NCBI GenBank assembly: GCA_945870085.1
Contig: CAMBQX010000002.1
Location: 1-37,824 of the forward strand
Source of the DNA: Bifidobacterium breve
GTDB lineage: Bacteria > Actinomycetota > Actinomycetes > S36-B12
Direction of reading: 5' to 3'
Length of the DNA: 37,824 nucleotides
Shown: in pieces, positions 8,641-37,464 of the stretch
Position numbering within the stretch: position 1 is the stretch's first letter
Layout of the letters: every line of letters starts with the position of its first letter
Translations under genes and position numbers: made by a program
Notes under the pieces: model-generated
The model's input: the letters and a program-made list of their open reading frames with translations, nothing else
The model's database searches: none
What the model was told of the DNA's origin: nothing

Positions 8641-8688
8641 GCTCGAAATCACGCAAGACCAAAATCAATAAAGAAGCGGAGATTTACT

Positions 8689-10176: not shown

Positions 10177-10190
10177 CGAAAGGGACTCCC

Positions 10191-12175: not shown

Positions 12176-12182
12176 TAAGCGC

Positions 12183-17743: not shown

Positions 17744-17752
17744 TTCGGCAGG

Positions 17753-17783
17753 ATTGTATCCAATCTGCTAGATTGAATACAAT
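17753..17783. promoter_or_regulatory. 31-bp near-perfect palindrome (candidate operator) overlapping a sigma-A-like promoter upstream of gcdH
   Basis: ATTGTATCCAATCT-gct-AGATTGAATACAAT: 14-nt arms with one mismatch. TACAAT (17778-17783) is a good -10. TTGTAT (17754-17759) is a -35-like hexamer 18 nt upstream. The gcdH start codon is at 17825. Confidence 0.5.
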
Positions 17784-17824
17784 ATGGAGCCGGACCCCCC
17801 CAAGCCAAGAAGGCAGGAGCCGCC

Positions 17825-23739: not shown

Positions 23740-23756
23740 GGTGCTCCTCTGTTTAA

Positions 23757-24671: not shown

Positions 24672-24829
24672 TTTTCCATCATTCGCAATAAGTTAATAGT
24701 CGGTATGCAATCACACTAACAACTCACAGGTTTCGACCTCTTGTTATCGAGAAGCTACCCCGCCTAAAGTCTAGGCCTCGGCGCGCTAATCCACATCTCG
24801 GCCATTGAACTCGGCCACTCTCGTCAGGG

Positions 24830-25744
24830 TCATTCCGCGGCGGGTGAGTCGTACATGAACCGGTACAAATCCGGTCGCCGGTCATTCCAGACCGGCCAGA
24901 GTGAACGCGCCTTATCCAACTCGGAAAGATTCAGCTCCGCACTTATGATTTCAGGCTGCTGGTGCGCTTTCGCCTCGGCGAGGACTTCGCCGCTCGGCGC
25001 AATAATACAGGACCGCCCGAAATAGTCGGTCACGTGTCCCCGGTGATTTTCCAACCCCGCCCTGTTGGCTGCGATTACGAAGACTCCAACTTCCATTGCC
25101 CGGAGCCGCAAGTCATCAACAAATAATGATTCGCGCCAGCCAAAAGATGAGACGGCAGCAATCACCACCTGCGCTCCAAGGTGCCGATTTGCTAGCCATA
25201 CTTCAGAAAAGGCGCGGTCGTAGCAAATAAGTGCCCCCAACCGAACCCCGTCTAGATCGAAAGTCATCGGCGACGGCCCTGGCTTGCAGTACGCAGCCTC
25301 ATCTACTCTCAGGTCTCCAGAGAACACCGACGGCGCAGTCAACTTTCGAAAAGTCTGATATCGCTCGCCGTGCGGACCTACACCTTCAACAAGGTATCCG
25401 CGGCTATCCAGCAATACCAGTGAGTTGTACACAATGCCATCCGCGCCCCTTTCCGCCATCCCAAATGCGACCGCCGTCGATGTCTTGCGAGCAATATCGG
25501 AAAAGAACTTAGTTGTTGGCCCGTCCACAGGTTCAGCCCACTTTTGAGCCTCAGGATCAAATGGACCGGAGGCAAAGTAGGCAGTGGTACACAATTCCGG
25601 CAAGAGGACCAAATCTCTACCCTTATGCGAGGCCTGTTGGACTAGAACGGCCAAGGCCGCTAGATTCTCAGGTACCGAAGGCCCGCAGCCCCCGGATTGC
25701 ACTACCGCAACCTTCAAAGCACTCTCCCTCGCATGAGGAGTCAA
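24830..25744 (-). CDS. Carbon-nitrogen hydrolase (nitrilase superfamily amidase)
   Basis: E/K/C triad contexts LLPEL, FRKL and ALICYDRAFSE. The maximal ORF starts at the TTG at 25744. An internal TTG at 25717 has a better SD (AGGGAG 6 nt upstream). Confidence 0.8.
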   Translation of the reverse strand: MTPHARESALKVAVVQSGGCGPSVPENLAALAVLVQQASHKGRDLVLLPELCTTAYFASGPFDPEAQKWAEPVDGPTTKFFSDIARKTSTAVAFGMAERGADGIVYNSLVLLDSRGYLVEGVGPHGERYQTFRKLTAPSVFSGDLRVDEAAYCKPGPSPMTFDLDGVRLGALICYDRAFSEVWLANRHLGAQVVIAAVSSFGWRESLFVDDLRLRAMEVGVFVIAANRAGLENHRGHVTDYFGRSCIIAPSGEVLAEAKAHQQPEIISAELNLSELDKARSLWPVWNDRRPDLYRFMYDSPAAE

Positions 25745-25915: not shown

Positions 25916-26929
25916 GTGCCGTCGGCCACCATCAAGATCGAGGCTCGAGAGAAAGCCCGGCAAAGCGGAGTTATGGCTCGACGGGTTCAAGCGTATTCGA
26001 TACTTGTTGCGTGGGCGTTCCTTATCTTAGTATTCACTCTTCTGCTGCCCGATACCTTCCTCACTATTCAAAATTTCACCGCCATCGCCAACTCGAAGAC
26101 CGCTACTGTTCTGCTCACTTTGGGCTTGATCTTTGCACTTGCCGCTGGCGAATTTGACTTGAGCATCGGGGCGGCGCTTTCCTTGGGGGCAGCGATCCCG
26201 GCGTGGCTGTACGACGTATACGGGACTCCAGTTTTGATCGGTATCCTCGTCGCGTTGATGGCGGCCGCCCTGATGGGAGCATTAAACGCCTTACTTTCAG
26301 TGAGATACAGCATCCCTTCGCTGGTGGTAACCCTTGGTACCGGAACGGCCGTCATTGGCTTGGTGGCCGGCATCGTCGGTAACAGTACAATTTCGATTCG
26401 CGGCGACTGGTGGAACGAGGTGCTCACCCACCGTACCTTCGGTCTCTACACCTCGTTTTGGATCGTGATGCTGATCGCCTTGATTATTTGGTATATCCTT
26501 CAACAGACTCCGATCGGCCGGCACCTTTATTTTGTGGGCCAAGGTCGTGAGGTTGCCCGCCTTGCGGGTATCAGGGTGAATGCTTACCGATACGCAGCCC
26601 TGATCACGTCAGCGACACTTGGCTGTCTCGCTGGAGCGTTCCTGCTCGGGAATACCGGAGCCATCCAAGCGCGGATCGGGCAATTCTTTATTTTGGCTGC
26701 CTTTGCGGCAGCATTTCTAGGGTCCACAGCCATCGTTCCAGGGCGGTTCAATGCCTGGGGCACCGTGGTGGCTGTTTACTTTATTGAGACCGGTATCACC
26801 GGACTACAGCTCCTAGGCCTTCAGGCCTGGGTTTCGGACGTCTTCTACGGCACCGCGCTCGTGGTCGGCGTCCTCGTGGCTACTCTTGCCACACGTTTGC
26901 GGTCGCGCCTTTCGGCACGGTCGACTTGA
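25916..26929 (+). CDS. ABC transporter permease (RbsC/AraH-type, sugar-class)
   Basis: 337 aa with a GTG start. Roughly 9-10 hydrophobic spans with ribose-type permease composition. Followed by the binding-protein and ATPase genes. Confidence 0.8.
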   Translation: MPSATIKIEAREKARQSGVMARRVQAYSILVAWAFLILVFTLLLPDTFLTIQNFTAIANSKTATVLLTLGLIFALAAGEFDLSIGAALSLGAAIPAWLYDVYGTPVLIGILVALMAAALMGALNALLSVRYSIPSLVVTLGTGTAVIGLVAGIVGNSTISIRGDWWNEVLTHRTFGLYTSFWIVMLIALIIWYILQQTPIGRHLYFVGQGREVARLAGIRVNAYRYAALITSATLGCLAGAFLLGNTGAIQARIGQFFILAAFAAAFLGSTAIVPGRFNAWGTVVAVYFIETGITGLQLLGLQAWVSDVFYGTALVVGVLVATLATRLRSRLSARST

Positions 26930-26946
26930 TTACGAGAGGAACACAT

Positions 26947-28167
26947 ATGAAGCAGCGCAGCATTAAGCGCTCTCTTGGGCAGCTAGCTGCCCTCGGGATC
27001 GTATCGGCCGTCGTCTTGACGGCCTGCGGTGGCAGCAGCAGTGGCGAGGCCACGTCTGCTGCGCCTGAACCAGCCCCGGTAGTTGCATCGGAAGCACCCG
27101 CGGAAGCCGCAGCAACTGAGGCTCCAGCACCTGGTCCAGCCGATGGGGTTGTGGAGGCGTTGGCTCGCTACGATGCAGCCAAGGCGCCAATCGTTTTCAG
27201 TTACCCGGGTGAGGCTTTTGATGCCGCCGCTTCGGCAAAGGGCAAGAAAGTCGCAATTATTTCTTGGGACGATCGCATCCCGATTTTGGCACAGTGGGGC
27301 GACACTATTCAGGCAGGTTTTCAGGATTACGGGGTGAAGGTCTCCCGCTCCTCGGCTGACTTTGACATCGAAGCCATCCCAGGTCTGTTCGCGCAGGCAG
27401 TCGCTGCCAAAGTCGACCTGATCGTGACAAACGCCATTCCGGGCGTCGTGGTCCCATTCGACACCATCGGCGACATTCCCGTGATGACAACTAATCAAAC
27501 AGCTAAGCCAGGGGTTGCGGCTGCTGACGGCATTATCGCGGACGTCTCCTTTGACTACACGATCCCAGCCCGCCTGATGGCTGACTGGTACATCGTTACC
27601 TCCGAAGGTGGCACGAAGGGCGATGCCCAAGTAGTGGCCTCAGAGGGTCAGGCATCAAGCCCGATCATGGTTGAAGAAATGCAGGCGGAAATTGCAGAAC
27701 TGTGCCCCGACTGCAAGGTTAACTTCGCCGATGCGCAACTTGGCTCCTGGTTTGATGGAGTACTGGCCAATGAGACACGCAATGCGCTCACCGCCAATTC
27801 GAACCTCAAGTTCTTGTTGCCGATTTACGATGGTATGACCTTGGCCGGTACCGACCCAGGCATCTCCGACGCTGGTAGCGACGCCACTCAGGCTTCGTTC
27901 AACGCGACCCCAGATGTCATGAAGGGTCTCGGTACCAGCTCGGTGAAAATGGACGTCGGCTGCCCGAATGACTGGTTCGGCTACGCAGTTGTTGATGCCA
28001 GTATGCGCATCTTCGCCGGAGCACCTTCCATCGCTGACTACGGCATCACCTGCCGCGTTTTCGACGCCGGGAACATCGGGGACATCGACCCATCAACGGA
28101 GAATTCCATGAACTGGTATGCAATTGACTTCTTAAAGGAGTTCAAGAGCTACTGGGGCACTCCGTAA
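26947..28167 (+). CDS. ABC transporter substrate-binding lipoprotein (type-I periplasmic-binding-protein-like), substrate unknown
   Basis: ATG at 26947 after GAGAGGA. Signal peptide with the lipobox LTAC, then an Ala/Pro/Glu-rich linker. Sits between the permease and ATPase genes. Confidence 0.7.
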   Translation: MKQRSIKRSLGQLAALGIVSAVVLTACGGSSSGEATSAAPEPAPVVASEAPAEAAATEAPAPGPADGVVEALARYDAAKAPIVFSYPGEAFDAAASAKGKKVAIISWDDRIPILAQWGDTIQAGFQDYGVKVSRSSADFDIEAIPGLFAQAVAAKVDLIVTNAIPGVVVPFDTIGDIPVMTTNQTAKPGVAAADGIIADVSFDYTIPARLMADWYIVTSEGGTKGDAQVVASEGQASSPIMVEEMQAEIAELCPDCKVNFADAQLGSWFDGVLANETRNALTANSNLKFLLPIYDGMTLAGTDPGISDAGSDATQASFNATPDVMKGLGTSSVKMDVGCPNDWFGYAVVDASMRIFAGAPSIADYGITCRVFDAGNIGDIDPSTENSMNWYAIDFLKEFKSYWGTP

Positions 28168-28216
28168 CTAGCACCTGCAGCATCAAGTTGGTGTAGTAAC
28201 TCTAAGGGAAGGGAAC

Positions 28217-30181
28217 GTGGTGGCCGAAACAGTCCTGCAGATTACGGGACTGTCGAAGACCTTCGGGGCAACTCGAGCGCTCATTGATGTTGACTTCAGT
28301 GTGCAAGCGGGTGAGGTTCATGGGCTTGTGGGGCGAAATGGCTCAGGCAAGTCCACCCTCATCAAGGTGCTTAGTGGTTACCACGTTCCCGACCCAGGGA
28401 GCCAGCTCACTCTTGGCGGGCGAGAAGTCCAGTTGCCCATTTCTGGTCGGCAAGCCGCGGCCCACGGCCTGGTGTTTGTGCACCAAGATCTAGGCTTGGT
28501 CCCCGCCTACAGCGTGCTAGAGAACATCCGGCTCAATTCTTGGAATGCCCACGGCTTCGAGCGTATTCATTGGAAAACCGAGACCGCGGAGGTTGAGGAA
28601 GAATTAGACCGCTTTGACCTTAATGTCAGGGCAGAAACACCAGTCGCGGCTCTTTCCCAGGTTGATCGTGCGATCGTCGCGATCGTAAGGGCGATGCATC
28701 ACCTTGGTAAGGACGGAAGAGGCAAGGTACTCGTGCTCGATGAGCCGACCGCCTATCTACCAAAAGATAGTGTTGAGCGAGTCTTTGAGGCCGTACGCAC
28801 CGTGGCCCAAACCGGAGCCGGCGTGGTCCTCGTCAGCCACCGCACGGACGAGGTGCTTTCACTCACCGACCGCATTACCGTCTTGCGTGATGGGCGCAGA
28901 GTTGACACTTTGATTACTTCTAAAACTGATGAACAAACTTTGGTCTCACTCATTCTTGGCCAAACCCTGTCGTCTTTCTACCCTGATCAGGTCACTGCAA
29001 AGTACGGCGATAGAGTCCTTGAAGTCGAAAAATTAAACGGTGGTCTCGTGCGGGATTTTAATATTACTGTTAACCGCGGTGAAATTGTCGGCCTTACCGG
29101 GCTAATGGGCGCCGGTCATGACGAAGTCCCCTACTACATTTTCGGAGCCCGGGATGCAAGTTCGGGACACATTGTCGTTAATAACCAAATACTGAAAACC
29201 CAAAAAGCCAGGCCTTCTAAAGCAATCGCAGCCGGTGTAGTGCTCCTCCCTGCCGATCGGCTCAATCTTTCAGGATCGGCCGCGGCCTCTGTCGAGGACA
29301 ACGTCGTGGTTCCGGTTTTCTGGCGCTACTTCTCCGGTGGTCGATTGAAGCTTGCCCAGATTCGCACACGCGTCAATTACCTGCTTGAGACCTTCGATGT
29401 CCGACCGGCACTACCCACTCTCGAGTTTAGTTCACTCTCGGGAGGCAATCAACAAAAGACCCTGCTTGCGAAATGGCTGCAGATGGAACCCGCCCTTCTG
29501 CTACTTCATGAGCCAACCCAGGGCGTAGACGTTGGCAGCAAGTCTGAAATTTTCTCCCGCATCACCGATGCGGCCGAAGCAGGTGCAGCGGTCATCATCG
29601 CGAGCGCTGAATATGAAGATCTTGCGAATTTGTGCACCCGAGTCCTCGTATTCGACAGCGGTCGCGTGGTGGGGGAAGTCTCTGGGGCTGAAATGTCGGC
29701 GGATCGCCTCCTCGATCTTTGCTACCGGGGCGCCCGCGCACGTGGAGCACACGGAATGATCTTTCAGTGGCGCCCCTACCGGATTGGTTTCGTTCCTCAA
29801 GGAATAGAGCCGGAGTTCATTGAAACTCCAGCTCCAGTAAGTGTTTCATATGTTTTTCAGTGGCGCCCCCACCGGGTAGGTTTTGTTAAACTTCTAACTT
29901 TGCAGAAAGCAATGGAGCCGGTTGCCACACCTTCACTAGAGCGTGTCTTTCAATGGCGCCCCCACCGGGTAGGTTTTGTTCCTCAAGGAATAGAGCCGGA
30001 GTTCATTGAAACTCCAGCTCCAGTAAGTGTTTCATATGTTTTTCGGTGGCGCCCCCACCGAGTAGGTTACGTTGAACTTCTAACTTTGCAGAACTCAATG
30101 GAGCCGGTTGCCACACCTTCACTAGAGCGTGTCTTTAGGTGGCGCCCCCACCGGGTAGGTTACTTTGACGCTGCCGAGTGA
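28217..30181 (+). CDS. Tandem-domain sugar-type ABC ATPase (RbsA/MglA-like). The core ends near aa 505-513, and the ORF runs on in frame through a repeat array
   Basis: GTG start after AAGGGAAGGGA. NBD1 has GRNGSGKST and VLVLDEPT. NBD2 has LSGGNQQK and LLLLHEPTQGVD. The ATPase-like sequence ends around ...SADRLLDLCYRG. The last ~141 codons (29756-30181) are the repeats. Whether that tail is translated as part of the ATPase is unresolved. Confidence 0.8.
   Translation: MVAETVLQITGLSKTFGATRALIDVDFSVQAGEVHGLVGRNGSGKSTLIKVLSGYHVPDPGSQLTLGGREVQLPISGRQAAAHGLVFVHQDLGLVPAYSVLENIRLNSWNAHGFERIHWKTETAEVEEELDRFDLNVRAETPVAALSQVDRAIVAIVRAMHHLGKDGRGKVLVLDEPTAYLPKDSVERVFEAVRTVAQTGAGVVLVSHRTDEVLSLTDRITVLRDGRRVDTLITSKTDEQTLVSLILGQTLSSFYPDQVTAKYGDRVLEVEKLNGGLVRDFNITVNRGEIVGLTGLMGAGHDEVPYYIFGARDASSGHIVVNNQILKTQKARPSKAIAAGVVLLPADRLNLSGSAAASVEDNVVVPVFWRYFSGGRLKLAQIRTRVNYLLETFDVRPALPTLEFSSLSGGNQQKTLLAKWLQMEPALLLLHEPTQGVDVGSKSEIFSRITDAAEAGAAVIIASAEYEDLANLCTRVLVFDSGRVVGEVSGAEMSADRLLDLCYRGARARGAHGMIFQWRPYRIGFVPQGIEPEFIETPAPVSVSYVFQWRPHRVGFVKLLTLQKAMEPVATPSLERVFQWRPHRVGFVPQGIEPEFIETPAPVSVSYVFRWRPHRVGYVELLTLQNSMEPVATPSLERVFRWRPHRVGYFDAAE
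29756..30166. repeat. Tandem array of five 33-nt cores at exact 93-bp spacing, with two alternating 60-nt inter-core segments (186-bp higher-order unit, ~2.2 copies)
   Basis: Cores start at 29762, 29855, 29948, 30041 and 30134 (TTTCAGTGGCGCCCCCACCGGGTAGGTTTTGTT-like). Segment A (29795-29854) is identical to 29981-30040. Segment B (29888-29947) differs from 30074-30133 at 3 nt. Confidence 0.95.
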
Positions 30182-30897
30182 GGCTTCGCAGCGAATACCT
30201 CAAGCCTGACATAGTCGACGCAGCGATCACCCATTGTGCGCGCAACCTGCGTTCGCTGCTCATCGCTGAGACGATGAAGAACAACATTTTTTAGGTAGTC
30301 AAGGTAAATCACGTCTGTTTGAAAAACTGCAGGTGCGATCCGCAGATTAACCTCTATCGGAGTAAGCCCCACGCATCGCAAGTGGCCAATAGTTTCGTCC
30401 ACCCCAGCGTAATGCCAAAGTGGCAACAAGTCTCCAGCGGAGACAGCATCAACGGCCGCCAGAAGACGCTCAATATTACCCTCGCCGCCTGCATCAATTC
30501 GCACGCGGCCCCCAGGTTTGAGGACTCGGGCAACCTGCTCCCAAGCACGTTCAGGCCTCCCCAGCCAGTGAAAAGCAGCGACCGACATCACCGCGTCTAC
30601 GCTTTCTGTTTCAACCGGCCAGGTTTCCATGAGATCAGCAGCGCAGATTTTCACCTGCGCAGAGCCGATGAATCGGCGTTCACATGCGGCACGCATCGTA
30701 GGTGAAGAGTCCAGCCCGATGATGGAACCACGCGGCAAACGAGATAGCGCGAGAGCAGCGTCTCGCCCGCTGCCACAACCGGCATCAACGAGGATCTCGT
30801 TACCGTTGAGTTCCATTTTGTTAACAACCCTTTGCCCCCACTCTTCGTGCGGCAGCGGCAGTGCTTCATACCTGTCAGGGTCCCAAGAAATGGTCAC
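30160..30897 (-). CDS. Class I SAM-dependent methyltransferase, trans-aconitate-methyltransferase (Tam)-like
   Basis: GTG at 30897 overlaps the selD stop (GTGA); the track ORF is over-extended to 31056. N-terminal WDPDRYE, SAM motif I VDAGCGSG, then GLDSSPTM and AAFHWL, as in Tam. Confidence 0.8.
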   Translation of the reverse strand: MTISWDPDRYEALPLPHEEWGQRVVNKMELNGNEILVDAGCGSGRDAALALSRLPRGSIIGLDSSPTMRAACERRFIGSAQVKICAADLMETWPVETESVDAVMSVAAFHWLGRPERAWEQVARVLKPGGRVRIDAGGEGNIERLLAAVDAVSAGDLLPLWHYAGVDETIGHLRCVGLTPIEVNLRIAPAVFQTDVIYLDYLKNVVLHRLSDEQRTQVARTMGDRCVDYVRLEVFAAKPHSAASK

Positions 30898-31901
30898 AAT
30901 GTTCGCCCGCCCGCAGTGATCAACACATCCCGCTCTTCTGGATATTTCCGCGCGTGGACGTGACCAATCGGCCAGAAGCCAGCGGGAATGGGACCCGGAG
31001 CAATAGCGGCCAGCAGACCACCGGATGTCTGTGGATCGACCAAAAGAGCAAGCCAATCCTCAGTGACCCGGATATCGGTGCGGGACTGGACCCACTCTAA
31101 GTTCGTATCGTGAGCAGAGGTGCGCCAACCGGCCAAGGCTAGAGCATGTACTCCATTCAAAAGTGGGATCTTGTCAACGGAAAGCGATACGGTGATGTCT
31201 GATGTGACCAAACCCAGCAGATGGCCAAGCAGCCCGTAGCCAGTGACATCTGTGACCGCATGGGGTCCACCCGAAAGACAGGAAAGTTCACGTGCCGCAT
31301 CCATTGCCGGGGTCTGCATCAAATGAAGAGCCTCCGGTAACACTGATGGATCCTGCGAAGTCACAGCAAGTCCAACTCCCAAAGGCTTGCTCAAGACCAG
31401 AACATCACCAGGTTGGGCGCCAATTATGCGCCACACGCGATCAGGATGCACTACTCCCATCACTGAAAGGCCAAATAGTATTCCGTTCGAATGCACGGTA
31501 TGACCACCGGTAATTAGGCCGCCACAGCCGTGCATGACATCTCGAGCGCCCGCCATCATCGCGGCGATGTACTGCACGTCCGTGTCGCGTGGAAACGCCG
31601 CCAAACTGAGCGCACTTAAGACCTTACCGCCCATCGCGTAAACATCGTTTACCGCATTTGCAGCAGCTACGGCTCCCGAGACGTACGGGTCGAGCGTAAG
31701 TGGTGGGCTGACATCCATGGTGGTGACGATGGCACGAGTTGCGTCAAGAATTTGGACCGCGGCATCGTCAGGCACAGTTAGACCAACAAGAAGTTCAGGT
31801 GGATCCTGGACTTGACGAACCTGATCAACCAGCGTTGCAACCAAGTGTGGCGAGGCTTTCGCCGCACAGCCACCACATTCGCGCGGTGGCCGCTCTAGCA
31901 C
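30894..31901 (-). CDS. selD: Selenide, water dikinase (selenophosphate synthetase), Cys-type
   Basis: 335 aa; the GTG start directly abuts the upstream TAG. Aligns with remembered E. coli SelD: N-loop ECGGCAAKASP (GAGCGCKISP), PDDAAV (RDDAAV), TTMDV (STTDF), AAANAVNDVYAMGG (AATNAISDIFAMGG), AVTDVTGYGLLGH (AMTDVTGFGLLGH), DPQTSGGLL. Confidence 0.85.
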   Translation of the reverse strand: MLERPPRECGGCAAKASPHLVATLVDQVRQVQDPPELLVGLTVPDDAAVQILDATRAIVTTMDVSPPLTLDPYVSGAVAAANAVNDVYAMGGKVLSALSLAAFPRDTDVQYIAAMMAGARDVMHGCGGLITGGHTVHSNGILFGLSVMGVVHPDRVWRIIGAQPGDVLVLSKPLGVGLAVTSQDPSVLPEALHLMQTPAMDAARELSCLSGGPHAVTDVTGYGLLGHLLGLVTSDITVSLSVDKIPLLNGVHALALAGWRTSAHDTNLEWVQSRTDIRVTEDWLALLVDPQTSGGLLAAIAPGPIPAGFWPIGHVHARKYPEERDVLITAGGRTL

Positions 31902-33284
31902 CTAGACACCCTGACCACGCCAAATGTTGACGGCCTTGGATGCATCCTTGGCACCTGCAAGCCCCAGCACACTCTCCAAAATCTGCTGTCCAGCCGACCG
32001 AGTCGTCACAATTTCGATATTCGACATGAACTTTTCCTCGATCTCGATTGCCGAGAGTGGGCGCTCATCAGCCCCACGATTGACCGACTCACGATGTCGC
32101 AATTCCCGGCCATCGGTGGTTGTAATTATTACCTCTCCGCAAAAATGCCTAGGGAAAGTACTCTTCGGATCTATCTCGTATCGAACTCTTGACGCCACCG
32201 CCAGACTAGCGGAATCCGACAATGCTTCTAAATCCAGCTCAGCAAGGGTGAACCGTCGGCGGGTAGCTGCCGTCCCGACCAGATAGGCAAGTGAGAACTT
32301 GGCATCGTAATCTGAACATGGAGTCAGTTTTACCTCTGCGGGTTCGCAGACCACCGGGATAATCTCCGCGGGGACAAGGCACAATATGTCAGCAATATCA
32401 TCGGCGACAAGATCATTTTCAATAACAAGTGCCAAGGTGGCGTCCATGAAAGCATGAGTGAAGTGGCAGGCTGGGTAGGGCTTGATCGCCACACTGAGCA
32501 GTTCCCACTCCTCACCCAAAGCTCGGGTAGCCGCCTGCAAATCAACCTCATGGCCATCAGGGACGTGCGATGCGTACAGCCCAAACCGCCCTTCATAAAC
32601 ATCCGGAGGTGCTTGCCACCCCGCCGCCGCGAACCGCGCGGACATAAGTGCGGTGGAAGCAGCCCATCCAGGATGCATGCGCTTGGTCCACGCACCGGTG
32701 TCAAGGAACTGCAGCGAGCCTGCTGCAAGGCTGCCCACAATTCCTTGTGCCGCGGTAATGCCCTTCACGTCGAGGCCGCTCATTCGTGCGGCCGCGACCG
32801 CGGATCCAAAGGCTCCCACCAAACCTGTGGGGTGAAAACCCTTGGCATGGAAACCGCCATGAGCCCCTGCTCCCACGCGCGCAGAAATCTCGATCGCTAT
32901 CAGATATCCCAACAGTAGATCAGATCCCAAAAGGTGATCGCGTTCAGCGATGGCCATGGCTGTAGGAAGTGCTGAAGCCGATGCGTGGAGAATTCCAGAC
33001 GGATGAGTATCGTCGTAGTCAAGTCCATGTATAAGGATGCCATTGAGTAAAGCCGCGTCACCAAGCGGTAATCGTTGTGGCATCCCAATGACAGATGAAG
33101 GCCCCTCCCCCGAAGTTGCCAGTACCGCGGCGGCAACGAAATCATCACTGGAACAGGCGTATGCCAGGCCAACACAATCTAGAACATGAAGCGCGGCACG
33201 TTCACGAACTTGCTCCGGCACGTCCTCCCATGTGACGCGATGTGCCCACTCAGCAATGCGTGCAGCAATCGGATCGCTTTTCAT
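31902..33284 (-). CDS. MmgE/PrpD family protein (2-methylcitrate-dehydratase-like)
   Basis: ATG at 33284, 13 nt after the upstream stop, with GAGGAG. The track ORF is over-extended to 33413. Typical N-terminus (IAEWAHRVTWEDVPEQVRERAALHVLDCVG), DYDDTH, and a C-terminal PrpD domain. Confidence 0.85.
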   Translation of the reverse strand: MKSDPIAARIAEWAHRVTWEDVPEQVRERAALHVLDCVGLAYACSSDDFVAAAVLATSGEGPSSVIGMPQRLPLGDAALLNGILIHGLDYDDTHPSGILHASASALPTAMAIAERDHLLGSDLLLGYLIAIEISARVGAGAHGGFHAKGFHPTGLVGAFGSAVAAARMSGLDVKGITAAQGIVGSLAAGSLQFLDTGAWTKRMHPGWAASTALMSARFAAAGWQAPPDVYEGRFGLYASHVPDGHEVDLQAATRALGEEWELLSVAIKPYPACHFTHAFMDATLALVIENDLVADDIADILCLVPAEIIPVVCEPAEVKLTPCSDYDAKFSLAYLVGTAATRRRFTLAELDLEALSDSASLAVASRVRYEIDPKSTFPRHFCGEVIITTTDGRELRHRESVNRGADERPLSAIEIEEKFMSNIEIVTTRSAGQQILESVLGLAGAKDASKAVNIWRGQGV

Positions 33285-33297
33285 GTACCTAACTCCT

Positions 33298-34599
33298 CTA
33301 ACGCTCGGATGTAATTGATGTTTTGCTGGTGTCAAATCGCAGTCCAAGGCTCTCCGCGATGGTGGTTCGCTGCACCTCATCGGTACCACCAGGAATGCGG
33401 AGGTTACGAGCAATCTGGAAAAGCTTGTTAATTGAGGTATCGCGCATCACACCAAGGCCACCATGGACTTGCAAAGCGCGATCGGCCACACGATAGAAAC
33501 TTTCATCGTTACTAACCTTCAGGGCGCAGATGCGGCGAATCTCATCACGCGGCCGGGGGATTCGGTACCACGGGCCCGGAGTATCGATTGCTCGCGCCAC
33601 TTCGAGTGATAACGATCTTGTCTGCAGCCAGTCGACGTACATATCCGCAATCATCCACTGGATCCCCTGATTGGCCCCTAACGGCATACCGGCAATCTGT
33701 CTATCGGTGGCACGTTCTAGTGTCCGCTCAATCAAATAGCGACTCCAACCAGAGCACATTCCGGCTCTTCGCATTCGCGTGTAATTGAATGACATCACCG
33801 CAATATCGAATCCCTGCCCTACTTCACCAAGAATCGCACTCTCTGGCAGCACTAGATCATCAAAAAAAATCTCACCGGTGTACCCGTCACCGAACATTGT
33901 TTGATACAGGTTTCCCAACCGGTACCCACGCGACGCGGCTTCTCGCGTATCGAACATAAAATAGGTAAAAGAACGACGGCCACCTTTTGGATCAGTCACC
34001 GCCAGTATCTGTGCAACATCGGCATCAAAGTAGTTGGTTATGTAGGCCTTGGAACCATTTAACACCCAGTCAGACCCGCGCTTCTCGGCCTTGGTCGACA
34101 TATCGAACAAATTGCTTCCGGCGCCAGACTCGGTAACACCGTGAAGGGAAGTCTTTTCGCCGCGAACGAGCGGATCGGTGAACTCTTGACGCTGGTGATC
34201 GTGAGCGAACAGCAAACGAGGAGTTGCTCCCTCCGACCAGGAGAGAAGAGCCGGGTTGAGACCTACCCCGTAGCCGTATACCAACTCCTCGACATAGATC
34301 ATTTCCTCACGCCCCAACCCGAGCCCGCCAAGGTGCTCCGGAAGGTGTGCGCTGTAGATACCTTTTTTCCCCGCTGCACGCATTATTTCGCGGCGAGCCT
34401 GCACGATTTCGGGGTGTAGCCGCCCATCACTATCCAAAAACTCTCGCTCATTGCTCAGCCGGTGTGCAAGAGATGCCTCACGAGGTTCAACCTCCTCGCG
34501 GTGGAGTTGACGAACTTTTTCGAGAATATCCTTCAGGTGCTCAGGGGCCTGAGCATCTTGCAGCAGAACTTCTGATTCATGTGCCGCCGTGCTTACCAT
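33298..34599 (-). CDS. Acyl-CoA dehydrogenase-fold flavoprotein, non-canonical active-site motif
   Basis: 433 aa. ACAD three-domain layout (HGVTESGAGSN, WVLNGSKAYITN, C-terminal helical domain). The usual YEGT reads PGGT. ATG preceded by AAGGAG, with a 7-nt overlap onto the upstream gene. Confidence 0.8.
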   Translation of the reverse strand: MVSTAAHESEVLLQDAQAPEHLKDILEKVRQLHREEVEPREASLAHRLSNEREFLDSDGRLHPEIVQARREIMRAAGKKGIYSAHLPEHLGGLGLGREEMIYVEELVYGYGVGLNPALLSWSEGATPRLLFAHDHQRQEFTDPLVRGEKTSLHGVTESGAGSNLFDMSTKAEKRGSDWVLNGSKAYITNYFDADVAQILAVTDPKGGRRSFTYFMFDTREAASRGYRLGNLYQTMFGDGYTGEIFFDDLVLPESAILGEVGQGFDIAVMSFNYTRMRRAGMCSGWSRYLIERTLERATDRQIAGMPLGANQGIQWMIADMYVDWLQTRSLSLEVARAIDTPGPWYRIPRPRDEIRRICALKVSNDESFYRVADRALQVHGGLGVMRDTSINKLFQIARNLRIPGGTDEVQRTTIAESLGLRFDTSKTSITSER

Positions 34600-35993
34600 C
34601 GGGAGGACTCCTTCATTATTTGGGGGCGTTCAAGATAAATCGGCTCAGTTTCAGGAACAGGCATTGCAATAGGTGAAAGCGGCAGGGCTGATTTTATCGA
34701 AGCACCCGGTCGGTGCCCGACAAAAAATGGGCGTCGCGCCAAACCATGCAGGAGTGGTGCAATATCAGCAGCGCGTAGCGAACCGAGCGCCCCCGAAAGT
34801 GCCGCGGTTTCCCCGAACTCTCGGACAGAATCCTTGCGCTGTTCAGGAGCGACAACAACTATGGGTGTGGGGTCACCACTGTGCATGAGTAATCCTTCAC
34901 TTGGTGTCGCGTGGTCACCGGTCACAGCAAGCACGAGATCACCCCGATCAATAATGTCAATAAAAGCCGCGATGGCAGCATCGCACGCTTCTATCGCGGC
35001 TATCTTGGCCTCGGGTTTCTTGGTGTGACCGGCTTCATCCGGTGCCTTTGTATGAACATGAATAAAATCAGGACGCTGCTCTTCACCTAGAAGACGAATG
35101 GCCGACTGGACCCGCGCACTCAGGCCTAGCCCGGCGTCCTCCGCGGGCGCAGCGACATCAACCTCGCGCATCCCTAGGGTTCTAGCCAAACCCCGGTAAA
35201 GCGCACTGCTCGTTACCATGGTCCCTTGCACTCCCACAAGATCAAGAAACGAAAGCGGTTGCCCGGCTATAGACGGCCACTTGGTCGTGGGAACGGTAAT
35301 TTCTAAACCTGCGCATACTAGGGTCGCGTGCGCTCCAAGGAGGTACGCCTTCAGCGCCTCAGCTGTGCGCCGCGCCTCGACTAGTCGGCGCCCACCTGCA
35401 ACGACACATTCTTGTAAAGGCACGGGCAGCATCCAAGGGTGCATGTGATCAAAGAGCGGGTCCGAGTCGCTGACCTCGATCGATTCAAGCCCGTGGGCTA
35501 GCAAAACCCACTCTCCGAGTCGTAGTGATTCAATGCTGAATGAGACACCGTCAACGACGAATTCTTCGGTCCATTCCTGCAGAATCCGATTCAAAGTGTG
35601 GGCAATATCGCTGTGCTGCGACCCCATCCGGCCCGTAATTCGCATAACACCATCAACTTGTTCGCCACGCCGGGCTGCCAAGTGCCACATCGGCGTACCC
35701 AGTGGCGGGACTCCACCCTCACCAACCCACTCAAGAAGAGCCCGGCCTGGAAAAGCCAGCTCCGGTAGTCCGAACATCGCCCAATGCGATCGCTCACTCG
35801 AAGTTGCCCAACCTGGTCCAAAAGGCACATGAACACCGTTGGCTCCTCTCGCGGCTAATTCATCCAGAGCCGGAGTCGAAGCAACTTCTAATGGTGTTCG
35901 CCCACCTAGGGACAAACAGGGACGATCACCCAAACCATCAAGGACTACGAGAACGACGGGTAGGTCATCGCGCTGCGGCCACTTCGACTTCAT
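34593..35993 (-). CDS. ApgM-like cofactor-independent phosphoglycerate-mutase family / alkaline-phosphatase-superfamily phosphomutase
   Basis: ATG at 35993 (ATGA overlap); the track ORF is over-extended to 36053. Metalloenzyme motifs VVLDGLGD, ASTPALDELA, HTKAPDEAGH and TGDHATP. Confidence 0.7.
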   Translation of the reverse strand: MKSKWPQRDDLPVVLVVLDGLGDRPCLSLGGRTPLEVASTPALDELAARGANGVHVPFGPGWATSSERSHWAMFGLPELAFPGRALLEWVGEGGVPPLGTPMWHLAARRGEQVDGVMRITGRMGSQHSDIAHTLNRILQEWTEEFVVDGVSFSIESLRLGEWVLLAHGLESIEVSDSDPLFDHMHPWMLPVPLQECVVAGGRRLVEARRTAEALKAYLLGAHATLVCAGLEITVPTTKWPSIAGQPLSFLDLVGVQGTMVTSSALYRGLARTLGMREVDVAAPAEDAGLGLSARVQSAIRLLGEEQRPDFIHVHTKAPDEAGHTKKPEAKIAAIEACDAAIAAFIDIIDRGDLVLAVTGDHATPSEGLLMHSGDPTPIVVVAPEQRKDSVREFGETAALSGALGSLRAADIAPLLHGLARRPFFVGHRPGASIKSALPLSPIAMPVPETEPIYLERPQIMKESSRW

Positions 35994-36520
35994 GTGGTGC
36001 TCATTCTCATTGGCAACCCCGAGGCGACTCCGTCCGGCAGGAGTGGCCGCCATGCTGCTTCATCACCCTTAAGCCAGGCCAGACGAATATCTGTGGCTCG
36101 GACGGCGTGCAATGCGTCGCCCTCGATAACCCTAACCGGGTACCCACCCGTTTGCAGTATCTGCACCTTGTCAGCCTCCCAATTCGTGAAGACCCGAACA
36201 AACTGCACCGCATCCAACGGAATGTAACTGGACCACGCCTTTGGACGATCGAGAGGAAAAGGAACTATGTGACAACGATCTTGCAGGCCCTTGTATTCAA
36301 GGGCCGATTGAATCATGTTCTGACGCTCCCAGTAGGTGAAGGGGTTCGACTCAGGTTGATGCCGATGTGCTGACGATGCATTTGCTTTCCACGATGCAGG
36401 ATCTGGATTAGTAATCCCAATAAAGACGATCTCGGCTTCGGCCAAGGCGATGTTCAATAATTCCCAGTGGCCAATATGAAAGGGTTGAAACCGACCCGTT
36501 ATCCCAGCCCGAGTCAGCAC
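35990..36520 (-). CDS. NadM-like nucleotidyltransferase (nicotinamide-nucleotide adenylyltransferase / cytidylyltransferase superfamily)
   Basis: 176 aa with a GTG start. (H/T)xGH motif GRFQPFHIGH and a second motif, RATDIR. Confidence 0.7.
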   Translation of the reverse strand: MLTRAGITGRFQPFHIGHWELLNIALAEAEIVFIGITNPDPASWKANASSAHRHQPESNPFTYWERQNMIQSALEYKGLQDRCHIVPFPLDRPKAWSSYIPLDAVQFVRVFTNWEADKVQILQTGGYPVRVIEGDALHAVRATDIRLAWLKGDEAAWRPLLPDGVASGLPMRMSTT

Positions 36521-36527
36521 TGCTTCA

Positions 36528-37190
36528 TCACCGAGCCCGCGACTCCAGATGGACTATCACTTCAGCCGAACTATTGAGATCTGCATACCTCCGTGACACA
36601 TCTCGCATATTGTCTTCGTGTGGCCCCAGTTCTTGATCTCCGCAGGCATCCTCGACAACAATCGTTTTGAATCCGTGACTGAACGAATCAACGATTGATG
36701 CACGCACACAGCCCGAGGTCGTAACTCCCATGATCAAAACAGTGTCAACTCCGCGATTTCTTAGGATGGTGCTCAGATCGGTTCCGAAGAATGCCGATGG
36801 ATACCTCTTAATCAAATAGATATCTGAGTCTTCCCACAACTGCGGAAGTATCGAAGCAGCGTGTGAATTCGGTGCGATATCTCGCAAACTCGGGACCTTC
36901 CAGTTTGTGAACTCATCATTATGAGTCCAAGCAACCGCCGTATGAACAACAGGAATTCCAGCCTGGCGCCCCACTGACAGCACACTCTCGGCGTTCTTAA
37001 CCGCCTGCGCAATATGCTCACTACGGCCCGTGGCGAAACTCGGATCGCAAAAAGCCTGTTGGAAATCAACCGCAACAATCGCGGGGCAAGTACCCCAGCC
37101 GACAGTAGTAATACCGTATCCAGCTTCAGCAAACTGATCTTTAATAGCTTTTACCGCCCTTCCTCGGAGGCTAGTGGTGCATCCCTGCTT
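36528..37190 (-). CDS. Isochorismatase-family amidohydrolase (N-carbamoylsarcosine-amidase / nicotinamidase-like), start unresolved
   Basis: Catalytic D/K/C contexts PAIVAVDFQQAF, LIKRYPSAF and TTSGCVR. The frame is open from 37190, but the first in-frame ATG/GTG/TTG is the GTG at 36983, which would delete the Asp strand. An SD-ATG at 37199 is followed by GAA TGA in the same frame. Confidence 0.65.
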   Translation of the reverse strand, partial: KQGCTTSLRGRAVKAIKDQFAEAGYGITTVGWGTCPAIVAVDFQQAFCDPSFATGRSEHIAQAVKNAESVLSVGRQAGIPVVHTAVAWTHNDEFTNWKVPSLRDIAPNSHAASILPQLWEDSDIYLIKRYPSAFFGTDLSTILRNRGVDTVLIMGVTTSGCVRASIVDSFSHGFKTIVVEDACGDQELGPHEDNMRDVSRRYADLNSSAEVIVHLESRAR

Positions 37191-37464
37191 TCATTCCATT
37201 GGACGCTCCATACCCGCAACTGCCCTATCACCGCAGTCTATCGGGGAATCCAGATATCGGCGCCCGAGGTGACCCCATACTCCAAGGTCCTCGCATACTC
37301 CCAGGCGAACAAAAGTGCTACAGCCAAGGAGGTCTACTCAGGTAATTGGAGTACCGATAACGATCGAGTCCTCGGGGCGGTAGGCGCAGGGAGCACTGGG
37401 CGCTGCGGTAGATTGCGACAAACAAGTCCAGTACGTTGTCACTGCTTCCACTGAGGAGACATTA

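What the first reader, a model, noticed from the sequence alone, without database searches (positions are those of the whole stretch)
30160..37199. Seven-gene translationally coupled operon embedding an intact SelD among small-molecule enzymes: candidate undescribed selenium pathway
The minus-strand gene order is: isochorismatase-like amidase, NadM-like nucleotidyltransferase, ApgM-like phosphomutase, ACAD-fold flavoprotein, MmgE/PrpD, SelD, Tam-like methyltransferase. The junctions are a 7-nt gap, a 4-nt overlap, a 7-nt overlap, a 13-nt gap, a 0-nt gap and a 4-nt overlap. SelD keeps the residues I remember as essential: the Cys and Lys of the N-loop and four Asp/Asn motifs. Known SelD contexts are selenocysteine (selA/B/C), selenouridine (selU/ybbB), Se-dependent molybdenum hydroxylases and the selenoneine sen cluster. 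None of those partners is here. A phosphomutase plus a nucleotidyltransferase is a classic activation module. PrpD-type and Tam-type enzymes both act on aconitate-like tricarboxylates. That could provide an acceptor for selenophosphate followed by methylation.
Basis: partly seen in the sequence, partly recalled or inferred. Interest (0 to 1): 0.85.

Follow-up and report, generated by a model that had tools for sequence, protein, structure and literature searches.

The report
Undescribed SelD-linked selenium gene cluster
A genuine selenophosphate synthetase sits in a conserved operon with a nucleotidyltransferase, a phosphomutase-like enzyme and an unusual acyl-CoA-dehydrogenase-like flavoprotein in lake bacteria where none of the known selenium-using pathways was found, so it probably marks an undescribed biological use of selenium.

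Summary
One detail differs: the first gene (isochorismatase-like) has no canonical in-frame start in this strain. SelD is a true SelD (TIGR00476 269 bits against a cut-off of 125; Cys/Lys loop and Asp/Asn ligands kept).

The host is a Ca. Nanopelagicales MAG. In 201 genomes of that order SelU was found in none and SelA in one. The other 15 SelD genes, the window's among them, all lie in this cluster.

The cluster recurs across phyla: Gammaproteobacteria, Rhodospirillales, Pseudonocardia, Polynucleobacter and Longimicrobiales. Its invariant core is not PrpD plus methyltransferase. It is the NadM-like nucleotidyltransferase, the ApgM-like phosphotransferase and an ACAD-fold protein that lacks both known catalytic Glu positions. 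Two deeply separate SelD clades were recruited to it, and every core-bearing genome tested has SelD. In Longimicrobiales the ApgM-like and ACAD-like proteins are fused.

I read this as a candidate further SelD-dependent selenium trait whose product is unknown. My favoured chemistry, by analogy only, is phosphate or nucleotide activation of an acyl-CoA followed by selenophosphate attack. I found no paper that describes the cluster; a 2016 survey noted isochorismatase and ABC genes near orphan selD.

The parts
36528..37190 (-). Isochorismatase-like cysteine hydrolase. The open frame is 220 codons, with no canonical start before 36983. The Asp (VDFQ), Lys (LIKR) and Cys (SGCV) triad motifs are read directly from the translation.
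   Evidence: PF00857 at 92 bits. Frame reading. Start-codon comparison with orthologs and with L044. The +C variant after 37161 in an RNA contig is.
35990..36520 (-). NadM-like nucleotidyltransferase with the GRFQPFHIGH motif. Core component.
   Evidence: PF01467. NadM models score 55-63 bits, below their cut-offs. Aligns to archaeal NMNAT structures. Present in all 53 ortholog loci with full flanks.
34593..35993 (-). ApgM-like phosphotransferase or mutase of the alkaline-phosphatase superfamily. Core component.
   Evidence: PF01676 and PF10143. TIGR00306 scores 209 bits against a cut-off of 320, and PhpG NF038358 scores 146 bits. Metal and Ser motifs are kept relative to 2ZKT. Fused to the ACAD-like protein in L111, L112 and P0121.
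33298..34599 (-). ACAD-fold flavoprotein without a catalytic Glu. Signature motifs are ARNLRIPGGT and NYTRMRRAGMCSGW. Core component; 75-86% identical between Nanopelagicales and Gammaproteobacteria.
   Evidence: Pfam ACAD N, M and C domains. Alignment to PDB ACADs shows IPGGT where they have IYEGT.
31902..33284 (-). MmgE/PrpD-family protein, not a PrpD equivalog. A frequent but not universal component.
   Evidence: PF03972 and PF19305. NF042438 scores 29 bits against a cut-off of 950.
30894..31901 (-). SelD, selenide water dikinase, with a CGGCAAK N-loop.
   Evidence: TIGR00476 at 269 bits against a cut-off of 125. Alignment to 3U0O and 2YYE. Tree. It is the only SelD in the genome over the cut-off.
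30160..30897 (-). Class I SAM methyltransferase, not Tam and not BioC by score. Specific to the Nanopelagicales versions of the cluster.
   Evidence: PF08241 and PF13649. All NCBIfam hits are far below their cut-offs.
29760..30161 (.). Tandem repeat with a 186-nt unit, 2.2 copies, 93% matches. It lies at the convergent junction and is read in frame as the C-terminal extension of the ABC ATPase ORF.
   Evidence: The repeated peptide is visible. DNA contigs break here.
25916..30181 (+). Convergent ABC importer. It consists of a BPD_transp_2 permease (25916-26929), a 413-aa binding protein with no Pfam match (26926-28167) and a double-ABC ATPase (28217-30181). Syntenic with the cluster in Nanopelagicales types A and B.
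23113..25744 (-). Conserved flank: CN_hydrolase (24830-25744), HMG-CoA-lyase-like protein (23757-24671) and FMN reductase (23113-23832).
   Evidence: Pfam and NCBIfam. Synteny in L005, L006, L011, L036 and L037.

Best explanation
The operon is one version of a conserved, horizontally spread gene cluster. It uses selenophosphate made by SelD in a reaction outside the four described SelD-dependent traits: selenocysteine, 2-selenouridine, Se-dependent molybdenum hydroxylases, and selenoneine/ovoselenol. Shown: SelD is authentic; it is the only SelD found in the genome; and in Nanopelagicales it occurs only inside this cluster, apart from one Sec-using genome. Also shown: the invariant partners across phyla are a NadM-like nucleotidyltransferase, an ApgM-like phosphotransferase and an ACAD-fold flavoprotein that lacks both known catalytic-base glutamates. 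Inferred mechanism, by analogy only (about 0.2 on its own): a carboxylic acid, probably a substituted dicarboxylate, is loaded onto CoA by a family III CoA-transferase. The ApgM-like and nucleotidyltransferase pair then activates a hydroxyl as a phosphate or nucleotidyl ester. The Glu-less ACAD-like enzyme eliminates that leaving group, as ACAD10/11 and LvaC do with 4-phosphoacyl-CoA, which exposes an electrophilic carbon. Selenophosphate attacks this carbon and leaves a C-Se bond after loss of phosphate. In the Nanopelagicales version the SAM methyltransferase, the PrpD-family enzyme and the isochorismatase-like amidase would tailor the product. The neighbouring ABC importer and amidase/lyase genes would supply the carbon skeleton.
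For: SelD authenticity. A SelD of the same CGGCAAK subfamily sits between SelB and SelA in another actinobacterium. Known traits not found: own genome. In the order, SelU was over its cut-off in 0/201 genomes and SelA in 1/201. SenB and YqeC were not found in 5 genomes that are 96-98% complete. Exclusive context: SelD occurs in 16/201 Nanopelagicales genomes. Fifteen of these are exactly the genomes that carry the ACAD ortholog, and the sixteenth (G036) has SelA on the same contig. Conservation: the full seven-gene order recurs at 52% SelD identity. All 53 ACAD-ortholog loci with full flanks carry the NTase and the ApgM-like gene, and 41 of 53 carry SelD, in at least four gene orders and several phyla. 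All 10 genomes tested in which the core lacks a linked SelD have SelD elsewhere. Cluster SelDs fall in two SelD clades separated with 100/100 support, and each clade also holds non-cluster SelDs. SelD was therefore recruited at least twice. Chemistry hints: IPGGT replaces IYEGT, YTR stands where IVD has LER, and the motif R..R.GMC.GW is conserved. There is a natural ApgM-ACAD fusion, seen in 22 member sequences. The ACAD10/11-LvaC precedent is in PMC12440821. The ApgM-like protein's third-best NCBIfam match, after two phosphoglycerate mutase models, is PhpG, which works with a nucleotidyltransferase. Expression hint: RNA-library contigs from three studies cover parts of all seven genes and bridge four gene junctions.
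Against: There is no biochemical or selenium-labelling evidence of any kind, and the product is unknown. The window's genome is only 79% complete. In Polynucleobacter and across the Actinomycetota sample SelD is so common (90/101 and 278/401 genomes) that finding it beside an unlinked core says little. The neighbourhood looks catabolic: CoA-transferase, HMG-CoA-lyase-like protein, amidases, a GntR regulator and, in Polynucleobacter, a full beta-oxidation set. That fits a selenium-dependent catabolic enzyme as well as it fits biosynthesis. The ACAD10/11 HCMR motif and catalytic Asp are not present here (read from the motifs against the description). A GT20 glycosyltransferase recurs in other versions and could be the real selenophosphate user, but it is absent from the window's cluster. 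RNA-library contigs cannot exclude DNA carry-over and do not show strand.
Confidence: 0.6

Rival explanations
1. Selenium cofactor model. The ACAD-like flavoprotein is the working enzyme of a catabolic pathway for a CoA-activated dicarboxylate or amide. SelD, the nucleotidyltransferase and the ApgM-like protein are maturation factors. They would install a labile selenium species, for example on the conserved Cys of the GMC motif, or a selenium-modified flavin or nucleotide cofactor. This would parallel SelD with YqeB/YqeC and the Se-dependent molybdenum hydroxylases.
For: The ACAD-like protein is far more conserved (75-86%) than its operon partners (32-55%) between Nanopelagicales types and Gammaproteobacteria. 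It lacks a protein catalytic base but keeps a nearly invariant Cys and two Arg on the active-site helix. The surrounding genes are catabolic and change with lineage, while the core stays constant. Archaeal FAD synthetase and PPAT belong to the same nucleotidyltransferase superfamily as the NadM-like protein (established knowledge; weak PPAT hit).
Against: In Pseudonocardia-type clusters the ACAD-like protein is no better conserved than its partners, at about 42%. No precedent exists for a selenium-dependent ACAD. The ApgM-ACAD fusion suggests consecutive steps on one substrate rather than a maturase and its client, although it does not exclude that.
Confidence: 0.2
2. Selenosugar model. The real selenophosphate consumer is the OtsA-like GT20 glycosyltransferase, working with a trehalose-phosphatase-like partner and acting like SenB. 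The rest of the cluster would make or use the selenosugar.
For: A GT20 below the OtsA cut-off recurs next to the core in Gammaproteobacteria, Polynucleobacter, Burkholderiaceae and Nanopelagicales types B and C. It is often accompanied by a T6PP-like phosphatase and an isochorismatase-like gene. A GT20/T6PP pair also lies 2.5 kb from a SelD without the core in an Acidimicrobiales genome.
Against: The window's own cluster and its type A relatives have no GT20. The only GT20 found in the window's genome is OtsA-like and lies on another contig. GT20 is absent from many core loci. OtsA/OtsB are common housekeeping genes, so adjacency may be incidental.
Confidence: 0.08
3. The SelD homologue does not make selenophosphate here. 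It might activate sulfide or another substrate, so the cluster would have nothing to do with selenium.
For: SelD-like families with proposed sulfur roles exist (PMC4210487, listed). The N-loop has an extra Cys, giving CGGC.
Against: It passes the SelD equivalog cut-off twofold and keeps all catalytic and ligand residues. A SelD with the same CGGCAAK loop is encoded between SelB and SelA. A second, canonical GGGCxCK SelD clade was independently recruited to the same core.
Confidence: 0.05
4. SelD serves a canonical trait (Sec, selenouridine, SDMH or selenoneine) whose genes were missed, and its place in the operon is incidental.
For: The window's MAG is 79% complete and yielded only 29 tRNAs.
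Against: Twelve cluster-bearing genomes are at least 90% complete. In none of the 15 cluster-bearing genomes was SelA or SelU found. SenB and YqeC were not found in the five tested. Conservation of the linkage across phyla and gene orders is not what incidental placement predicts.
Confidence: 0.03
5. Selenium detoxification. SelD plus the methyltransferase convert selenide into methylated, exportable or volatile selenium.
For: A SAM methyltransferase overlaps selD by 4 nt. It has weak similarity to arsenite methyltransferase models, at 45 bits.
Against: The methyltransferase is confined to the Nanopelagicales versions. In type B it is separated from SelD by a CoA-transferase gene. Detoxification by methylation does not need ATP-dependent selenophosphate (established knowledge). 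This model does not explain the invariant core.
Confidence: 0.04

Closest known systems
sen cluster (SenA/SenB/SenC) for selenoneine, and the related ovoselenol pathway
   Same: A dedicated SelD paralogue or orthologue sits in a small operon with the enzymes that consume selenophosphate to make a small molecule. That cluster was found by selD neighbourhood mining (10.1101/2022.04.13.486033).
   Different: No SenB (TIGR04348) was found here; senA was not searched. The partner families (NadM-like NTase, ApgM-like, ACAD-like) are unrelated to SenA and SenB. The product is unknown.
Selenium-dependent molybdenum hydroxylase trait (SelD with YqeB/YqeC)
   Same: SelD is embedded among catabolic genes in organisms that need neither Sec nor selenouridine. 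Accessory proteins of unknown chemistry deliver selenium to an enzyme (PMC2276186, PMC2432076, listed).
   Different: YqeC was not found, and no molybdenum hydroxylase turned up among the window genes scanned from 14275 onward. The candidate client would be a flavoprotein of the ACAD fold.
ACAD10/ACAD11 and the Pseudomonas LvaABC system
   Same: An atypical ACAD that lacks the catalytic Glu works with a phosphotransferase on an acyl-CoA, and the two are fused in some lineages. The ACAD eliminates a phosphate to give an enoyl-CoA (PMC12440821). Here an ApgM-like phosphotransferase is fused to the ACAD-like protein in Longimicrobiales.
   Different: The phosphotransferase here belongs to the alkaline-phosphatase superfamily and is not an APH-type kinase. 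The ACAD has Gly or Ala rather than Asp at the base position, and it lacks the HCMR motif. A nucleotidyltransferase and SelD are added.
PhpF/PhpG of phosphinothricin tripeptide biosynthesis
   Same: A cytidylyltransferase-fold enzyme activates a phosphate-like anion, and an ApgM homologue transfers it. After two phosphoglycerate mutase models, the window's ApgM-like protein's next-best NCBIfam match is PhpG (146 bits).
   Different: The score is far below the PhpG cut-off of 545. The other phosphonate genes were not looked for. The pairing is recalled from established knowledge and was not tested here.
PSTK/SepSecS route to selenocysteine
   Same: The chemical logic is shared: a hydroxyl is phosphorylated, eliminated, and replaced by selenium from selenophosphate.
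   Different: That route acts on tRNA-bound serine with a PLP enzyme. Here the carrier would be CoA and the catalyst a flavoprotein. This is resemblance by inference only.
Orphan-SelD neighbourhood noted by Peng et al. 2016 (PMC5029168)
   Same: They listed 26 orphan-SelD organisms, including a freshwater single-cell actinobacterium. They flagged isochorismatase-like and ABC-ATPase genes near orphan selD, and both gene types are in this window.
   Different: That paper did not define the cluster, its NTase, ApgM-like and ACAD core, or its distribution.

Membership tests
SelD (selenide, water dikinase) | Score over the curated equivalog cut-off (TIGR00476, 125 bits) | tested here: met
   269 bits.
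SelD (selenide, water dikinase) | N-terminal Gly-rich loop with catalytic Cys/Sec and Lys (E. coli C17, K20) | tested here: met
   GGC12AAK15 aligns to AGC17GCK20 of 3U0O and to SGCAAK of 2YYE. It is conserved in 116 of 120 homologues as CGGC..K.
SelD (selenide, water dikinase) | Asp/Asn metal and ATP ligands of the PurM fold (E. coli D51, D68, N87, D91, D227) | tested here: met
   DDAAV, TMD, AANAVND and TDVTGYG align with identical residues. They are invariant columns in A2.
SelD (selenide, water dikinase) | Selenide-dependent formation of selenophosphate from ATP | not testable with these tools
   Needs an enzyme assay.
Selenocysteine trait | selA, selB and tRNA-Sec in the genome | tested here: not met
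   Own genome: no SelA; only EF-Tu-like hits for SelB; no tRNA-Sec among 29 tRNAs. The genome is 79% complete. SelA was over its cut-off in 1/201 genomes of the order, and that genome is not a cluster carrier.
2-Selenouridine trait | selU/ybbB (TIGR03167) | tested here: not met
   No hit in the own genome. Over the cut-off in 0/201 genomes of the order.
Se-dependent molybdenum hydroxylase trait | yqeB together with yqeC | tested here: not met
   YqeC (TIGR03172) was not found in the own genome or in five relatives that are 96-98% complete. YqeB was not searched.
Selenoneine sen cluster | senB (TIGR04348) next to selD | tested here: not met
   The best own-genome hit is 40 bits against a cut-off of 300, on other contigs. 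No hit at E 1e-20 or better in five relatives; at this threshold the control genomes gave no hit either, as none is known to carry senB. senA was not searched.
Acyl-CoA dehydrogenase (alpha,beta-dehydrogenating) | Three ACAD Pfam domains | tested here: met
   PF02771, PF02770 and PF00441.
Acyl-CoA dehydrogenase (alpha,beta-dehydrogenating) | Catalytic Glu at the MCAD E376 position or the IVD E254 position | tested here: not met
   IPGGT aligns to IYEGT of three solved ACADs. Thr stands at the residue before the conserved Arg (YTR). The IVD position is assigned from established knowledge. Both features hold in all lineages, and paralogues in the same loci keep YEGT.
ACAD10/11-LvaC subfamily | Catalytic Asp at the base position and the HCMR motif with an upstream Arg | tested here: not met
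   Gly or Ala stands at the base position. The helix reads R..R.GMC.GW, not HCMR.
ApgM (archaeal-type cofactor-independent phosphoglycerate mutase) | Score over the TIGR00306 cut-off (320 bits) | tested here: not met
   209 bits. The metal-binding and Ser motifs are nevertheless conserved relative to 2ZKT.
NadM (NMN adenylyltransferase) | Score over TIGR01527 (181 bits) or PRK01153 (127 bits) | tested here: not met
   55 and 63 bits. The HxGH-type motif GRFQPFHIGH is kept.
PrpD (2-methylcitrate dehydratase) | Equivalog score (NF042438, 950 bits) | tested here: not met
   29 bits. Only family-level membership holds, through the MmgE/PrpD Pfam domains.
Tam (trans-aconitate 2-methyltransferase) | Equivalog score (297-320 bits) | tested here: not met
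   43-44 bits. BioC scores 61 bits against 185. It is a generic class I SAM methyltransferase.

The most novel reading that the evidence does not exclude
The NadM-like nucleotidyltransferase, the ApgM-like phosphotransferase and the Glu-less 'PGGT' ACAD-fold flavoprotein are the signature of a further selenophosphate-dependent trait that is independent of tRNA and of any glycosyltransferase. It would install selenium on a CoA-bound small molecule, or on the flavoenzyme itself. It is spread by horizontal transfer through abundant freshwater bacterioplankton (Nanopelagicales, Polynucleobacter), Gammaproteobacteria and soil actinomycetes. That would explain part of the long-standing 'orphan SelD' problem.
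Probability: 0.5. Interest if true: 0.9.

Novelty: new variant of a known kind. Interest (0 to 1): 0.8.

Why it matters
Only four uses of selenophosphate are described. The last of them, selenoneine in 2022, was found by exactly this kind of selD-neighbourhood reasoning. 'Orphan' SelD genes have been an open question since 2008.

This cluster gives that question a concrete target. It has a defined three-gene signature and strict association with SelD. Cultured carriers are available for selenium metabolomics: Pseudonocardia spinosispora DSM 44797, P. acidicola, P. bannensis and Polynucleobacter nymphae. It also contains an atypical flavoenzyme whose missing catalytic base invites a new mechanism.

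It would also imply a selenium requirement in some of the most abundant lake bacteria, whose streamlined genomes keep few dispensable genes.

Tried and rejected
- **Predicted complex of the ACAD-like protein with SelD**: no verdict, so it is not used either way.
- **Co-occurrence of an unlinked core with SelD in Polynucleobacter**: the core is in 4/101 genomes and SelD in 90/101, so the test is uninformative.
- **The same test on 401 Actinomycetota genomes**:
  - The SelD base rate was 278/401, so this test is also uninformative.
  - The aggregate count includes six unpublished genomes (G310, G357, G397, G707, G625, G429). Nothing else from them is used.
  - Two of the four profile hits (G434, G632) were ordinary ACAD paralogues without NTase or ApgM-like neighbours; G632 keeps Glu (VEGT) at the base position. 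One of them accounted for an in-frame TGA that I had briefly considered as a possible Sec form.
  - Only four ACAD candidates per genome were scored there, so orthologues may have been missed.
- **Protein-atlas look-up of the ApgM-like protein**: returned only generic family names.
- **Literature searches** for selD with PrpD, ACAD, nucleotidyltransferase or phosphoglycerate mutase, for new selenium gene clusters since 2022, and for Nanopelagicales with selenium: found no description of this cluster.
- **Promoter and terminator scan upstream of the operon**: nothing above the shuffle expectation.
- **The CGGCAAK loop as a marker of a neofunctionalised SelD:** rejected, because the same loop occurs in a SelB-SelD-SelA operon.
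- **RNA-library contigs** leave parts of the operon uncovered. I draw no conclusion from the uncovered parts.

Full report
**What is in the window**

The window is a whole contig (C2) of a 1.78-Mb MAG in 224 contigs, 79% complete. Pfam and NCBIfam give the family-level identities:
- an isochorismatase-like cysteine hydrolase
- a CTP_transf_like (NadM-like) nucleotidyltransferase
- an ApgM-like member of the metalloenzyme/alkaline-phosphatase superfamily
- a three-domain ACAD-fold protein
- an MmgE/PrpD-family protein
- SelD
- a class I SAM methyltransferase

Only SelD reaches a curated equivalog cut-off. The names NadM, ApgM, PrpD and Tam hold as family resemblance only.

ATG 37199 runs straight into a stop, and the isochorismatase frame has no ATG, GTG or TTG before the middle of the domain. 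Orthologs begin M-S-x-D-E-F-A-E-A-G-Y-G, and that ATG is lost here. The closest relative (L044, 97% DNA identity) and one RNA-library contig have an extra base after 37161 that opens the frame to upstream GTG/TTG codons. The best DNA run agrees with the window.

**SelD is a real SelD**

- It scores 269 bits on TIGR00476, against a cut-off of 125.
- It aligns end to end with E. coli and Aquifex SelD structures.
- It keeps the Cys and Lys of the N-terminal loop (GGC12AAK15) and the Asp/Asn ligand motifs.
- Its loop carries an extra Cys (CGGCAAK), as do 116 of its 120 closest homologues. This is a lineage trait and not a sign of new function, because a homologue with the same loop is encoded between SelB and SelA.

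**Known selenium traits were not found**

In the window's genome I found none of the following:
- SelA
- SelB (only EF-Tu-like hits)
- tRNA-Sec among the 29 tRNAs
- SelU
- SenB
- YqeC

Because the MAG is incomplete, I repeated the test on relatives. Record titles place the order as Ca. Nanopelagicales, with the window in the acSTL-like genus of BJGE01000009. In an even sample of 201 genomes of the order:
- SelU was over its cut-off in none.
- SelA was over its cut-off in one, G036.
- SelD was present in 16.

G036 carries SelA on the same contig as its SelD. The other 15 SelD genes, the window's among them, all lie in this cluster. These 15 genomes are exactly the 15 that hold the ACAD ortholog. 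Twelve of them are at least 90% complete. Five of these (96-98% complete) also showed no SenB or YqeC.

The full seven-gene order recurs at 52% SelD identity on a 263-kb scaffold and in GTDB genomes (type A).
- Type B (genera g1 and g17) inserts a family III CoA-transferase between SelD and the methyltransferase, and adds a divergent GT20.
- Type C (G046) reads ACAD-SelD-NTase-ApgM.

A scan of about 186,000 species genomes with an ACAD alignment returned 80 loci. In all 53 loci with more than 4 kb on both sides, the NTase and the ApgM-like gene accompany the ACAD ortholog, and 41 of the 53 also hold SelD. The carriers include:
- Steroidobacteraceae, Woeseiaceae and other Gammaproteobacteria (order [PrpD]-NTase-ApgM-ACAD-SelD)
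- a Rhodospirillales MAG
- cultured Pseudonocardia species (ACAD-SelD-NTase-ApgM)
- with the core but no SelD in the locus: Polynucleobacter (including cultured P. nymphae), Spongiisociaceae, Longimicrobiales, Actinomycetospora and Burkholderiaceae

All ten of the unlinked genomes that I tested have a SelD elsewhere. PrpD is present in only some lineages, and the methyltransferase only in Nanopelagicales.

**SelD was recruited more than once**

A maximum-likelihood tree splits SelD into two clades with 100/100 support.
- One clade (GGGCxCK loop) holds non-cluster SelDs, including the Sec-linked G036 copy. Nested among them are the cluster SelDs of Pseudonocardia and type C.
- The other clade (CGGCAAK loop) holds the SelB-SelD-SelA copy and Acidimicrobiales SelDs without the core, together with cluster types A, B and the proteobacterial ones.

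Two different SelD lineages joined to the same core argue that the core needs the ordinary SelD product.

**Features of the core proteins**

- *ACAD-like protein.* It aligns over its length with solved butyryl-, short- and medium-chain ACADs. It has IPGGT where they have IYEGT, and Thr at the residue before the conserved Arg, which is where isovaleryl-CoA dehydrogenase places its Glu (the IVD position is from established knowledge). Across all lineages down to 40% identity the motifs ARNLR(I/V)P(G/A)G(T/S) and R..R(G/A)GMC(S/A)GW persist. Paralogous ACADs in the same loci keep YEGT. Between Nanopelagicales and Gammaproteobacteria this protein is 75-86% identical, while its partners are 32-55% identical.
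- *ApgM-like protein.* It keeps the metal ligands and the Ser of the phosphoenzyme.
- *NTase.* It keeps GRFQPFHxGH.
- *Fusion.* In a Longimicrobiales MAG, two loci encode a single ORF of 857 or 825 aa with the ApgM-like domains followed by the ACAD domains. The fused form is a protein cluster of 22 member sequences.

**Accessory genes**

- An OtsA-like GT20 below the OtsA cut-off recurs beside the core in several phyla. In Gammaproteobacteria it comes with a trehalose-phosphatase-like gene and an isochorismatase-like gene.
- The window's cluster has no GT20, and the genome's only GT20 is OtsA-like on contig C39.
- In Polynucleobacter the core follows a thiolase-like gene, an SDR, an enoyl-CoA hydratase and a family III CoA-transferase. 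From established knowledge, this set resembles beta-oxidation of a substituted succinate.
- In the window the flank holds a convergent ABC importer, a CN-hydrolase, an HMG-CoA-lyase-like gene, an FMN reductase, a luciferase-like monooxygenase, a GntR/FCD regulator, a second CoA-transferase and a normal ACAD.

**Habitat and expression**

Near-identical DNA occurs in lake and freshwater metagenomes from eight studies. Contigs from three metatranscriptome libraries (three studies), 95-99% identical, cover pieces of all seven genes. They bridge the SelD/MTase, ACAD/ApgM, ApgM/NTase and NTase/isochorismatase junctions. These are contigs from RNA libraries. They show neither strand nor level, and they cannot exclude DNA carry-over.

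**How it most likely works**

The shown facts support a SelD-dependent function of the NTase, ApgM-like and ACAD-like core that is none of the described traits.

For the chemistry I can only argue by analogy. All known selenophosphate users let it attack an electrophilic carbon and then lose phosphate (established knowledge; for SelA, SelU and SenB). ACAD10/11 and LvaC are Glu-less ACADs that, fused or paired with a kinase, eliminate phosphate from 4-phosphoacyl-CoA (PMC12440821). An ApgM homologue paired with a nucleotidyltransferase transfers an activated phosphate analogue in phosphinothricin synthesis (established knowledge; PhpG hit).

Taken together with the ApgM-ACAD fusion, I favour this sequence:
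1. A hydroxyl on a CoA-bound acid is activated as a phosphate or nucleotidyl ester.
2. The ACAD-like enzyme eliminates that leaving group.
3. Selenophosphate adds to the exposed carbon.
4. In Nanopelagicales, the methyltransferase, the PrpD-family enzyme and the amidase then tailor the product.

I give the general claim 0.6 and this specific route about 0.2.

The main rival (0.2) is that selenium is a cofactor of the ACAD-like enzyme in a catabolic pathway. The unusual conservation of that protein and its invariant Cys fit this reading. A GT20-based selenosugar route (0.08), a non-selenium SelD (0.05), selenium detoxification by the methyltransferase (0.04) and missed canonical traits (0.03) are less likely, for the reasons given under the rival explanations.

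**Novelty and limits**

I found no paper describing this cluster. The selD-overlap mining that found the sen cluster listed selA, TIGR04348, selU, yedF and DUF3343. Peng et al. 2016 noted isochorismatase-like and ABC-ATPase genes near orphan selD in 26 organisms, one of them a freshwater single-cell actinobacterium. That is a partial glimpse of what is defined here.

Everything above is comparative genomics. No selenium chemistry has been observed, the product is unknown, and the genome samples are samples.

Noticed in passing
window 29760-30161: A 186-nt tandem repeat (2.2 copies, made of 93-nt subunits) lies at the convergent junction. It is read in frame as a repeated FQWRPHRVGF... tail on the ABC ATPase ORF, whose orthologs vary from 536 to 739 aa. 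It could be a variable coding tail or an intergenic repeat. DNA contigs of the best run break there.
   Followed up: partly
window 37161 (minus-strand isochorismatase 5' region): A one-base indel polymorphism separates strains. The window lacks a base that L044 and an RNA-library contig have, and this removes every canonical start from the isochorismatase-like gene.
   Followed up: yes
L111:8642-11215 and L112:8738-11215 (Longimicrobiales MAG, two contigs): A natural fusion of the ApgM-like and ACAD-like proteins in one ORF, present twice in the same MAG and in a cluster of 22 database sequences (P0121).
   Followed up: yes
L004:6561-9310: A decayed remnant of the cluster. It holds only the last 117 aa of the ACAD, an intact PrpD and a SelD called without its N-terminal domain, directly downstream of NADH dehydrogenase genes. 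The methyltransferase and ABC genes are missing.
   Followed up: no
L007:10990-11722: In one scaffold the methyltransferase is split into two ORFs (197 and 60 aa), while the otherwise near-identical L006 has it intact (240 aa).
   Followed up: no
L044, L052, L091, L122 record titles: Several freshwater MAG records that carry this cluster are titled Bifidobacterium breve or Klebsiella pneumoniae. This does not fit their gene content or their nearest relatives, so the labels are probably wrong.
   Followed up: no
place wO2fV86e (contig of P0063, Acidimicrobiales; no DNA held): A SelD without the core lies next to RNase HII. A CofC-like nucleotidyltransferase lies upstream, and a GT20 plus trehalose-phosphatase pair lies 2.5 kb downstream. 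This echoes the GT20 association seen beside the core.
   Followed up: no
G202:C1:4560939-4561865, G203:C15:340010-340930, G306:C88:2731-3657: In several core-bearing genomes the unlinked SelD has one in-frame TGA. In G202 it sits at the loop Cys position (GAG*ACK); in the others the position was not read. This indicates selenocysteine-containing SelD, and therefore Sec machinery alongside the core.
   Followed up: partly
window 13799-20783: A second plus-strand block contains a class III aminotransferase, a DAO-type FAD oxidoreductase, a canonical ACAD, a family III CoA-transferase and a GntR/FCD regulator. It may be a related catabolic module. The left third of the window (1-13655) was not annotated.
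   Followed up: no
SelD residues 9-15 (window 31859-31877): The N-loop reads CGGCAAK, a CxxC arrangement shared by most of this SelD subfamily. The second Cys of the E. coli loop (C19) is Ala, and a new Cys sits three residues upstream of the catalytic Cys.
   Followed up: partly
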